Position numbers: made by a program
NCBI RefSeq assembly: GCF_055900595.2
Contig: NZ_CM148325.1
Direction: 5' to 3' (one strand)
Length of the DNA: 64,000 bases
Shown: positions 24,001 through 27,000 of the stretch, one piece after another
Layout of the letters: each line of letters begins with the position of its first letter
Numbering within the stretch: position 1 is the stretch's first letter

Positions 24001-27000
24001 TTACCTTCAGGTTGTCGCAATGGCATCGGACATCCGGTGTCGGATAACTAAACGTAGCGTTAAGGCGATATTGCTGAGAGACCGGTTAAGTGGTTGCACG
24101 GGAGTAATGAGTTTGGGGAGGGTACCAGAATGTCAGTCTGGTGCGGTATGCTGGCAGTATCACGTTGATTACAGCATAAAGTAACGAGAGACGAATGGAA
24201 GTTAAAACCAGAGCAGTTCCGTCGTTGTTCATCCCGGGAGACGCTGGAAAAAGTGATTTCCCACACACGTTATAAACTTACCCCTGCGGAGCTGGAAGCC
24301 TTTAACTCTGCGGTCGATCACCGGCTGGCAGAACTGACAATGAACAAACTTTACGATCGCGTGCCGGCTTCCGTCTGGAAATATGTCACCTGAATCTTGA
24401 ATCCGCGCTACGATGACTCCGGTGTTATCTGTGCACCGGAAGATCGGGAACATTAAGCAGTATAACGGCAACAAAGAATTCGAAATCAAAAGGGAATGGT
24501 GTACAGAGGGGCAGGCGTTCAGGCATTACCGGCCTGTATCTTCTGAAGGGGACTCGTATTTGTCGGGGCTGAGTATTCCGCTCGATTCGATCACGGATTG
24601 GCGGAATACCTGACTGTGATTGATTCAGGTACCATTTTGCAGGGAGCCGGTGCGTTACTGTCTGGCACAACAAACGCAGCGGGTCGCTCTGCCCCGCCGA
24701 TTCCTGATAATCCCTCCTCTGTAACCTACTGCAACAGTACAAATACACTGACGCCTGAAACGGTAACCAGAATCAGCACCAGCAGTAACGTCAGTAAACA
24801 GAGCAGACGATCGGTCTTCCGGTAATAACCGAAGGGGTCGACAGCGCCACAATACGGGCAACATACTGTATTATGAGTAATTGCGTTACCACAGTCCCTG
24901 CACTTCTTTTTGCATATCACGATCGCTCCCTCTCCACGCCTTATCCGTAACCTGTTTTTTACATTAAAAAAACAACGCCGGGAATTCAATCGTCAGTCCG
25001 GCGATGACCGTTCGGGTTATCACAGAGTGCCTGAGACAGTGTCCTGCCGGAGGTCACCTCAGGGGCTCTGCGCATTTTTTACGACGTGGTTATTCCGTAT
25101 GAACCATACGGAGATTTAACCATGACCTACAAATACAACCCCTTCTGGCAGCAACGTATTCGTGAGACGGTGCGGCACGCACTGAATGTTCATTCCCGCC
25201 TGACGGCATTGCGGGTTGACCTGCGTTTCCCGGATGTACCGGCAGCAACGGACGCAGCTGTGATATCCCGCTTCATCAATGCCCTGAAAGCCCGAATCGA
25301 CGCTTACCAGAAACGTAAGCATCGGGAAGGTAAACGCGTGCATCCCACAACCCTGCATTACGTCTGGGCCCGGGAGTTTGGGGAGTGCAAAGGTAAAAAA
25401 CACTATCACCTGATGCTGCTGGTCAACCGGGATACCTGGTGTCGTGCCGGCGATTACCGCGCTCCGGGATCACTGGCCGGGATGATTAAACAGGCGTGGT
25501 GCAGTGCCCTGGGAGTGGATGCCGGACGTTATGACACGCTGGCACATTTTCCGGTCAGGCCGGCGGTGTGGCTGGAACGCGATGATGACACCGGCTTTCA
25601 GCAGGTGCTGGAGCGTGCTGACTATCTGGCGAAGGAGAGTACCAAAGCTTACGGCACCGGTGAGCGCAACTTTGGCTGCAGTCGTGGCTGAGCCCGACAG
25701 ACGACTTATCTGACCTTAGTGTGATGACGTGTTCACAGCGACCACACTGATTTTCCCTTCTGAGACTGAACTGAAAACCGCCATTCACACCTGACCACGC
25801 TGCCCGTACCGGGACGGCTGTTGCCTGTGTGTCGTCTGGCGCAGAGGAACATATACTATGTACGCAAAATCTTTTCTCGCACTTGATGGCAACGGACGTC
25901 TGACCGGTGCCCGTACCGCACAAACTGCTCCTTATGCCCACTACACCTGCCACCTTTGCGGCAGTGCACTCAGATACCACCCGCAATACGACACCGAACG
26001 GCCCTGGTTTGAACACACTGACGACGGGCTGACGGAGCACGCGCAGCAATGTCCTTATGTCAGGCCGGAACGCAGAGAAATACGGTTGATTAAACGTCTG
26101 CAGCAATTCGTCCCGGATGCCTTACCCGTGGTACGTAAAGCCAGCTGGTACTGCAGGCAATGTCACCACGATTATTATGGGGAGCAGTACTGCACACACT
26201 GCCAGACCGGGCGTTTCAGTGAGGAGGGGGTAGCAGAATGAACGGTATAAAAACGGGGCTGGGGATCACGCCGGGTGAGCACATTATCAGTGCCGACTCT
26301 GCGCTCAGCAGAAATATCCGGCATTGTTTCTGCCTTTCCTGTCATGGCCGGTTGATTCTGCAGACAGATGCTCAGGGGGCGTGGTTTGAGCATGATTTAC
26401 ATGCCCTGAGTGAGCAACAGAAGGGTAAGCGTGCAGCAAAAACCGTATTGACGGGGATGTGTTATTCAGTCGGCAGTGCTACGCGCCAGGGGAGCAGTTC
26501 GCCGACCCGGTTTATCGGCCAGTCGGCTATGACGTCAAGGACATAGCGGAGGTAGCTTTCTGGCTCCACTCCGTTCAGTTTGCACGTCCCGATCAGGCTG
26601 TACAGCAGCGCTCCCCGCTCTCCTCCATGATCCGAACCGAAGAACAGGTAGTTTTTGCGGCCCAGACTGACCATCCGCAACGCATTTTCAGCGATGTTAT
26701 TGTCCGCCTCAGCCCAGCCATCATCTGCATAGTACGTCAGCGCCGGCCACTGGTTCAGGGCGTATGCGAACGCTTTCGCCAGTTCTGAGTGTCGCGACAG
26801 GGTTTTCATCTTTTCACGCAGCCAGCTTTCCAGGGATTTCAGCAGCGGTTTCGTTTTCAACTGACGTTCGGCAAGGCGCTGCTCCGCCGTCATTCCCCTT
26901 ATCTCTGCCTCGATGGCGTACAGTTCGCCGATCCGTTTCAGCGCTTCCTCCGTCAGGGCTGACGGGGTGCGAACGTGCACATCGTGGATTTTACGGCGGG

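What the first reader, a model, noticed from the sequence alone, without database searches (positions are those of the whole stretch)
24169..24393. Unannotated Hha/YmoA-family modulator gene with a +1 frame break in an A4 tract
The six-frame track lists nothing here, yet one frame encodes a near-complete Hha-family protein (…FRRCSSRETLEKVISHTRYKLTPAELEAFNSAVDHRLAELTMNKLYDRVPASVWKYVT). The only start codon (24195) is in the adjacent frame, and deleting a single A from the aaaa run at 24204-24207 restores a 66 aa ORF beginning MEVKPEQFRRC. Hha-family proteins partner H-NS to silence horizontally acquired virulence genes, so an island-borne copy that is switched off, or switchable by slippage, could influence expression of sat, iha or the capsule genes.
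Basis: seen in the sequence. Interest (0 to 1): 0.55.

Follow-up and report, generated by a model that had tools for sequence, protein, structure and literature searches.

The report
Dead island copy of hha gene
This is a real but broken copy of an island-borne hha regulator gene, inactivated by an old, widespread 14-base deletion rather than by an extra A, and public annotation already marks it as a pseudogene, so it is ordinary.

Summary
The Hha-family reading frame at 24169-24393 is real (Pfam HHA E 3e-27). The ATG at 24195 is the family's authentic start: intact relatives begin MEVKTKEDWLYQFRRC. The frame really is broken between that ATG and the Hha frame.

The cause is not an extra A. 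Compared with intact 70-aa alleles in the same island context, the window lacks 14 bases (AAGACTGGCTGTAT) between 24213 and 24214. These encode the core of helix 1. The AAAA run at 24204-24207 is identical in intact and broken alleles (codons GTT AAA ACC).

No A3 allele was found. The best hits in 5,426 complete E. coli genomes still carry A4. A metagenome scan gave 0 A3 matches against 93 A4 matches.

The deletion allele occurs in 1,741 genomes and the undeleted junction in 765. Variants seen only in deletion alleles here are enriched for amino-acid changes, and 4 of 98 copies have further frame damage, which fits a decaying pseudogene.

Identical DNA in E. coli Nissle 1917 is annotated by RefSeq as pseudogene hha, "missing N-terminus", at exactly 24214-24393. 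Island-borne hha paralogues (hha2/hha3) are already published.

Verdict: a known pseudogene. "Switched off" is right; "switchable by slippage" is refuted.

The parts
24214..24393 (+). Remnant of the hha-paralogue coding sequence (codons for QFRRC...WKYVT plus the TGA stop). This is the part homologous to Hha residues 14-71.
   Evidence: Pfam HHA E 3e-27; NF008191 97.5 bits; RefSeq pseudogene feature at exactly these coordinates in identical DNA; alignment to the intact 70-aa alleles.
24195..24197 (+). Ancestral ATG start codon of the gene, now out of frame with the Hha coding sequence.
   Evidence: Intact relatives begin ATGGAAGTTAAAACC = MEVKT.
24186..24190 (+). GAGAG Shine-Dalgarno-like motif 4 nt upstream of the ancestral ATG.
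   Evidence: Read from the sequence. These five bases are identical in all 11 aligned sequences, intact and deleted. Its function is inferred.
24195..24275 (+). 26-codon out-of-frame ORF (MEVKTRAVPSLFIPGDAGKSDFPHTL). This is what a ribosome starting at the ancestral ATG would now make.
24204..24207 (+). It is part of the codons GTT AAA ACC and is invariant. It is not the lesion.
   Evidence: Identical in 4 intact and 7 deleted alleles. No A3 allele was found.
24213..24214 (+). Junction of the 14-bp deletion (AAGACTGGCTGTAT is missing). This is the actual frame-breaking lesion. G24211 is a later A>G change on the deletion allele.
   Evidence: Alignment A2. The pure deletion form CCAAAG|CAG is present in metagenome haplotypes.
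24169..24213 (+). Fortuitous upstream extension of the Hha frame (LQHKVTRDEWKLKPE), with no start codon. Codon 24169-24171 is TTA here but TTG in strains 25DN and PK-F, where PGAP calls a 74-aa 'Hha'.
   Evidence: Most deletion alleles have a TAA stop directly before the TGG instead of GAA.
24166..24168 (+). TGA stop that closes the Hha frame upstream.

Best explanation
Window 24195-24393 is a pseudogene of an island-borne Hha paralogue, of the hha2/hha3 type that travels with the yfjI-alpA-...-yagK/yfjJ-zinc-ribbon and flu-irmA-cbtA island backbone.

The ancestral gene encoded a 70-aa protein, MEVKTKEDWLYQFRRC..., colinear with Hha residues 7-71. A 14-bp deletion just after codon 6 removed the codons for (K)EDWLY, the core of helix 1. 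It also shifted the rest of the gene into the +1 frame relative to its own ATG.

Ribosomes that start at the retained ATG and its Shine-Dalgarno-like motif now make a 26-residue out-of-frame peptide and stop at 24273-24275. The Hha-like frame has no ATG, GTG or TTG before codon 29 (GTG 24253). So no full-length Hha-like protein is made and the locus has no regulatory function.

Shown: homology, the lesion, its distribution, and invariance of the A tract. Inferred: absence of translation and of function.
For: - Family membership of the frame.
- Intact 70-aa relatives with the same start (P0005, P0007, P0010) lie in the same gene neighbourhood (versus 7, 29).
- DNA alignment shows the 14-bp gap, with A4 invariant.
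- The intact protein aligns without gaps to Hha residues 7-71 in PDB entries 1JW2 and 4ICG. The undeleted form is therefore the family-typical one.
- The deletion-type junction occurs in 1,741 of 5,426 complete genomes and the undeleted junction in 765.
- There is no A3 allele.
- Among 98 deletion-allele copies, variants shared with intact alleles are 2 nonsynonymous to 10 synonymous. Variants seen only in deletion alleles are 15 to 12 (Fisher p = 0.037). They include R>W in the invariant DHRLAEL motif. Four of the 98 copies carry further frame damage.
- RefSeq PGAP annotates identical DNA as a pseudogene.
Against: - The downstream frame is still open in 94 of 98 deletion-allele copies, and overall variation is third-position biased (19 of 29 variable sites). 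This could be read as residual constraint. It is also expected if haplotypes are exchanged with intact copies by recombination, or if the deletion is young relative to the divergence.
- Only 3 intact haplotypes were available to define 'private' variants, so that test is weak.
- PGAP-aa (CTG start) or 74-aa (TTG start) proteins for sister alleles.
- No expression data were examined.
Confidence: 0.9

Rival explanations
1. Phase-variable or slippage-switchable gene. The A4 run at 24204-24207 gains or loses an A during replication or transcription, toggling a 65-aa Hha-like ORF on and off.
For: Deleting one A does join ATG 24195 to the Hha frame.
Against: - A4 is the ancestral state in intact genes and is invariant in all 11 aligned alleles.
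- The best matches to an A3 query in 5,426 genomes still carry A4: 98.8% identity, one gap.
- The metagenome scan gave 0 A3 versus 93 A4 matches.
- Any of 76 positions would serve as well as the A run.
- Known contingency loci use much longer homopolymers (general knowledge).
- The product would still lack helix-1 residues.
Confidence: 0.01
2. An N-terminally truncated Hha fragment of 46-49 aa is translated from the internal GTG 24253 or CTG 24244. It retains the counterparts of Hha D48 and the C-terminal helix (and of E25 only if translation starts at CTG 24244), so it could still bind H-NS, perhaps as a modulator or dominant negative.
For: - PGAP annotates 49-aa CTG-start 'Hha/YmoA family' proteins for sister alleles.
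- The Hha residues reported to contact H-NS (E25, A41, D48 and the C-terminal helix; PMC11825884) lie downstream of the deletion.
- The frame is open in 94 of 98 copies.
Against: - The Shine-Dalgarno context is poor. GGGAG 24236-24240 is 3 nt from the CTG and 12 nt from the GTG (sequence).
- The fragment lacks helix 1 and about half of helix 2 of a three-helix bundle, so it is unlikely to fold (inference).
- Variants private to deletion alleles show relaxed constraint.
- PGAP flags the identical sequence as a pseudogene.
Confidence: 0.05
3. Programmed +1 ribosomal frameshifting between 24195 and 24273 restores an Hha-like product at low level.
For: The +1 frame is open across the whole interval. 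A rare AGA codon follows ACC at 24210-24212 (sequence).
Against: - There is no recognisable +1 shift site of the prfB type, and no stimulatory Shine-Dalgarno motif in the right place.
- The arrangement arose from a deletion of a normal unshifted gene.
- Most deletion alleles vary at the junction codon, GAG, CAG or AAG.
- No Rfam element was found.
Confidence: 0.02
4. Assembly or sequencing artefact in this one sequence.
For: None beyond the general error-proneness of homopolymers.
Against: 730 independent complete genomes are identical to the window over the 82-nt junction segment. 608 records are >=99% identical over 751 nt. 24 of the 98 deletion-allele copies collected (the window, loci from complete genomes and metagenome contigs) share the window haplotype.
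Confidence: 0.005

Closest known systems
Hha (E. coli K-12; PDB 1JW2, 2MW2; Salmonella Hha-H-NS complex 4ICG) and YmoA (2K5S)
   Same: The conceptual translation of 24214-24390 is 59% identical to K-12 Hha residues 14-71. The intact island allele aligns gap-free to Hha 7-71. The DHRLAELTMNKLYD core and the counterparts of E25 and D48 are present.
   Different: The window copy has no continuous ORF from a start codon and lacks the helix-1 codons. It sits on an island, not at the core tomB-hha locus.
Island-borne hha2/hha3 paralogues of EAEC 042 and other pathogenic E. coli (Prieto et al. 2016, PMC4864382; Bernabeu et al. 2019, PMC6480617)
   Same: Same sub-family and same kind of location: islands carrying flu/agn43, yeeR and irmA. 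The papers report a statistical association with sat and agn43. The collinear Nissle island has agn43, irmA, cbtA/cbeA, iha and sat.
   Different: The window copy carries the 14-bp frame-breaking deletion. The 042 copy examined here has a different lesion: homology stops at about window 24237, and a 58-aa ORF with an unrelated N-terminus is annotated. The papers treat these genes by PCR presence and do not discuss intactness (no occurrence of 'truncated' or 'pseudogene').
YdgT (Cnu), the core-genome Hha paralogue (PDB 2JQT)
   Same: Same fold family. It is a weaker match (NF007703, 42 bits; 2JQT E 9e-11).
   Different: The score is far below the YdgT equivalog cut-off of 101 bits, so the window gene is not a YdgT orthologue.

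Membership tests
Hha/YmoA family (PF05321, NF008191) | Significant sequence match to the family profile. | tested here: met
   Pfam HHA E 3.2e-27 over model positions 3-57 of 57. NF008191 scores 97.5 bits against a cut-off of 90.
Hha/YmoA family (PF05321, NF008191) | Complete ORF of about 67-72 aa from a start codon, including helix 1 (T-K-x-D-Y/W-L...R-R-C). | tested here: not met
   A 14-bp deletion removes the EDWLY codons and puts the ATG out of frame. The first in-frame canonical start is codon 29.
Hha/YmoA family (PF05321, NF008191) | Conservation of the H-NS-contacting residues (Hha E25, D48, C-terminal helix). | tested here: met
   Present in the conceptual translation: TLEKV, DHRLAEL, SVWKYV (alignment). 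The residue list comes from PMC11825884.
Hha/YmoA family (PF05321, NF008191) | Binds H-NS and enhances silencing. | not testable with these tools
   Needs pull-down or reporter assays.
Island-borne hha2/hha3 paralogues | Located in the horizontally acquired island backbone together with the flu/irmA/yeeR-type genes. | tested here: met
   Order yfjI, hypothetical gene, alpA, hha, Gp2-family (yagK/yfjJ), zinc-ribbon, in the window-identical Nissle DNA and in loci with intact alleles. agn43, irmA and cbtA/cbeA lie upstream. The window is 98.4-99.3% collinear with that region.
Island-borne hha2/hha3 paralogues | Intact, expressed coding sequence. | tested here: not met
   Frame broken. Annotated as a pseudogene. 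Expression was not tested.
Homopolymer-slippage contingency (phase-variable) locus | Tract length varies among relatives, switching the frame. | tested here: not met
   A4 in all 11 aligned alleles. No exact A3 allele in 5,426 genomes. 0 A3 versus 93 A4 matches in metagenome contigs.
Homopolymer-slippage contingency (phase-variable) locus | Long homopolymer, typically 7 or more bases. | tested here: not met
   The run is 4 bases. The threshold comes from general knowledge.
Programmed +1 ribosomal frameshift gene | Conserved shift site with a stimulator, and the frameshifted arrangement as the ancestral or conserved state. | tested here: not met
   The ancestral state is an unshifted ORF. The junction codon varies between GAG, CAG and AAG. 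No Rfam frameshift element was found.

The most novel reading that the evidence does not exclude
The 14-bp-deletion allele, the majority form of this island gene in E. coli, might not be dead. It could yield an H-NS-binding product by non-canonical initiation. One route is a 46-49-aa C-terminal fragment. Another, in sister alleles such as 25DN, is a TTG-started 74-aa protein whose fortuitous upstream residues TRDEW mimic the lost TKEDW of helix 1. On that reading the window allele (TTA instead of TTG) would be a second-step loss.
Probability: 0.04. Interest if true: 0.4.

Novelty: already known. Interest (0 to 1): 0.08.

Why it matters
It matters little. The island-borne Hha paralogues are published, and this copy is already flagged as a pseudogene in RefSeq.

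Two minor practical points follow.

First, PCR or BLASTN presence of hha2/hha3 has been proposed as a virulence indicator (PMC4864382). In complete genomes, however, the frame-broken 14-bp-deletion allele (1,741 genomes) is more than twice as common as the undeleted junction (765 genomes). Presence therefore does not mean a functional regulator.

Second, automated annotation of this one lesion is inconsistent. It appears as a pseudogene, as a 49-aa CTG-start protein, and as a 74-aa TTG-start 'Hha'.

Tried and rejected
- **A3 versus A4 polymorphism.** I searched with a synthetic A3 query in complete genomes and with exact patterns in metagenome contigs. No A3 allele was found, so this was rejected.
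- **One-base-shorter match in strain SCU-176.** Hit H8 is one base shorter over the 751-nt query and might have been an A3 allele. Its pseudogene coordinates are unchanged, so the missing base lies downstream of the gene.
- **Structured RNA or known sRNA around the locus.** Rfam gave no match at E<=1 in 22000-26500.
- **Promoter and terminator scan of 23300-24750.** It found no sigma-70 consensus and one terminator-like hairpin at 24520-24536, which is no more than shuffles give. This is uninformative.
- **Microhomology at the deletion ends.** None is evident from the sequence.
- **Second Hha-like sequence in the window.** tblastn found none.
- **Selection test on deletion alleles.** It suggests relaxed constraint, but it rests on small counts and on only 3 intact haplotypes.
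- **The 042 genome copy as a reference 'functional' paralogue.** It turned out to be 5'-truncated itself, so it could not serve as an intact comparator.

Full report
**Observation.** Window 24169-24393 (+) is an open frame bounded by TGA 24166-24168 and TGA 24391-24393. It reads LQHKVTRDEWKLKPEQFRRCSSRETLEKVISHTRYKLTPAELEAFNSAVDHRLAELTMNKLYDRVPASVWKYVT. It matches Pfam HHA (PF05321, E 3.2e-27) and NCBIfam NF008191 'hemolysin expression modulator Hha' (97.5 bits, cut-off 90). The first ATG, GTG or TTG in this frame is GTG 24253, which gives a 46-aa ORF. ATG 24195 lies in the neighbouring frame and opens a 26-codon ORF ending at 24275. The run AAAA is at 24204-24207. Removing one A gives 65 aa, not 66, and any of 76 single-base deletions between 24198 and 24273 would join the two frames equally well.

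**What the lesion really is.** A protein search found close relatives of 70 aa that begin MEVKTKEDWLYQFRRCSS... (P0005, P0007, P0010). ATG 24195 (MEVKT) is therefore the family's genuine start. These intact genes sit in the same neighbourhood as the window gene: YfjI/DUF3987, a hypothetical gene, AlpA, hha, a YagK/YfjJ 'inovirus Gp2' protein, and zinc-ribbon proteins (compared).

A DNA alignment of the window, six other broken alleles and four intact alleles (A2) shows the difference. Intact genes read ATGGAAGTTAAAACCAAAG-AAGACTGGCTGTAT-CAGTTCCGT. The window reads ATGGAAGTTAAAACCAGAG-CAGTTCCGT. Fourteen bases are missing between 24213 and 24214, and base 24211 is G instead of A.

Metagenome haplotypes include the pure deletion form CCAAAG|CAG, so the A>G change came later. 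The AAAA run is identical in every sequence and belongs to the codons GTT AAA ACC (V-K-T). The intact 70-aa protein aligns without gaps to Hha residues 7-71 of PDB 1JW2 and 4ICG (TKEDWLYQFRRC against TKTDYLMRLRRC). The undeleted form is therefore the ancestral, family-typical one, and the deletion removes the core of helix 1 as well as shifting the frame.

**Distribution.**
- In 5,426 complete E. coli genomes, a probe that needs the 14 bases is covered at >=80% in 765 genomes.
- A probe across the deletion junction is covered at >=80% in 1,741 genomes, and 730 are identical to the window over the 82-base probe (>=99% identity band). This excludes a sequencing artefact and shows that the deletion allele is the majority form.
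- A synthetic A3 'repaired' probe finds only A4 sequences. The best full-length hits are 98.8% identical, span 82 bases in the record and contain one gap.
- An exact-pattern scan of metagenome contigs gave 0 matches for the A3 form. It gave 93 stretches for the A4 deletion form, which serves as the positive control.
- The one-base-shorter match in strain SCU-176 has its missing base downstream of the gene.

**State of the deletion alleles.** I collected 98 copies in 28 haplotypes. The window haplotype is the commonest, at 24 copies. Most other haplotypes carry TAA immediately before the TGG that overlaps the old ATG, which closes the Hha frame at once. The window lineage has GAA there, which opens the frame back to TGA 24166. 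Only 5 of the 98 copies (25DN-like) have TTG at the position of window 24169-24171, where PGAP calls a 74-aa 'Hha'. The window has TTA there. Every other aligned sequence has G at that base, so the window state is derived.

Of the 98 copies, 94 keep the 59-codon downstream frame and 4 are further disrupted. Variants shared with the intact alleles are 2 nonsynonymous to 10 synonymous (pN/pS about 0.07). Variants seen only in deletion alleles are 15 to 12 (about 0.41; Fisher p = 0.037). They include R>W in the invariant DHRLAEL motif, in 12 copies. This fits relaxed constraint after inactivation. The test is weak, because only three intact haplotypes defined 'shared', and some 'private' changes (H>N, L>M) do occur in intact proteins of the database.

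**Existing annotation and literature.** DNA identical to the window over 751 bases in E. coli Nissle 1917 (NZ_CP058217.1) carries a RefSeq pseudogene feature: 'hha, hemolysin expression modulator Hha; incomplete; missing N-terminus'. It corresponds exactly to window 24214-24393. Sister alleles are annotated inconsistently as 49-aa CTG-start proteins or as 74-aa TTG-start proteins.

Island-borne Hha paralogues hha2 and hha3 were described in EAEC 042. They were found to be associated with pathogenic strains, with sat and agn43, and with the flu-yeeR-irmA cluster (PMC4864382; PMC6480617). The Nissle region is 98.4-99.3% collinear with the window. It contains kps genes, agn43, irmA, cbtA/cbeA, then this locus, then iha, sat and iuc.

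**Mechanism.** *Shown:* the gene is an Hha paralogue whose own ATG is out of frame because of a 14-bp deletion. The A tract is not polymorphic. *Inferred:* ribosomes starting at the retained GAGAG/ATG make a 26-residue unrelated peptide, no Hha-like protein is produced, and the locus is inert. The Hha residues reported to contact H-NS (E25, A41, D48 and the C-terminal helix; PMC11825884) are still encoded. A truncated product from CTG 24244 or GTG 24253 therefore cannot be formally excluded. However, the Shine-Dalgarno context is poor and such a fragment would lack helix 1 and part of helix 2.

**Other checks.** Rfam gave no hit in 22000-26500. The promoter and terminator consensus scan showed nothing above background. 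There is no second Hha-like sequence in the window.

**Verdict.** The finding is real as a sequence feature, but it is ordinary. It is a known, annotated pseudogene of a published family, broken by an old and widespread 14-bp deletion.

Noticed in passing
L014:2480-2656 (E. coli 042, NZ_CP042934.2 4604666-4604842): The hha-paralogue copy found in this EAEC 042 assembly is itself 5'-truncated. Homology to the family starts at about window 24237, next to an IS2 remnant. The annotated 58-aa ORF (VAARNTSGDAGKVNSHTRYKL...) has an unrelated N-terminus. 042 is the strain in which hha2/hha3 were defined, and the published work does not mention intactness. I did not work out whether this copy is hha2 or hha3.
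   Followed up: partly
window 24169-24213, compared with L003:3265-3489 and L005:1765-1989: In the window lineage, the stop TAA just before the old ATG's TGG has become GAA, which opens the Hha frame upstream. The extension reads TRDEWKL, resembling the lost TKEDWLY, and tblastn even aligns it. In 25DN and PK-F a TTG at the first codon gives a 74-aa ORF that PGAP names Hha. This is probably coincidence, since there is no Shine-Dalgarno motif upstream, but I did not test it.
   Followed up: partly
window 23297-24194: About 0.9 kb between alpA (23090-23296, minus strand) and the hha remnant has no annotated gene and no Rfam match. Many diverged island copies match only from about window 24074 onward, so the conserved block begins about 120 bp upstream of the ATG.
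   Followed up: partly
window 26238-26423 / 26462-28036: The second zinc-ribbon (DUF7828) gene downstream is cut off at its 3' end, next to an IS66-family element (tnpC at 26462-28036, minus strand). In Nissle it is annotated as a pseudogene missing its C-terminus. Intact islands have a 137-aa gene there.
   Followed up: no
window 24726-24923 (- strand): A small conserved ORF (65 aa in RefSeq, WP_032144956.1) has a CxxC...CxxC motif followed by a hydrophobic tail. It lies between the hha remnant and the Gp2-family gene, is annotated only as hypothetical, and is frameshifted in 042.
   Followed up: no
E. coli complete genomes: RefSeq/PGAP annotates the same 14-bp-deletion lesion in three ways depending on the strain: as a pseudogene 'missing N-terminus', as a 49-aa protein with a CTG start, or as a 74-aa 'Hha' with a TTG start. 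Protein-presence surveys of hha paralogues will therefore over-count functional copies.
   Followed up: yes
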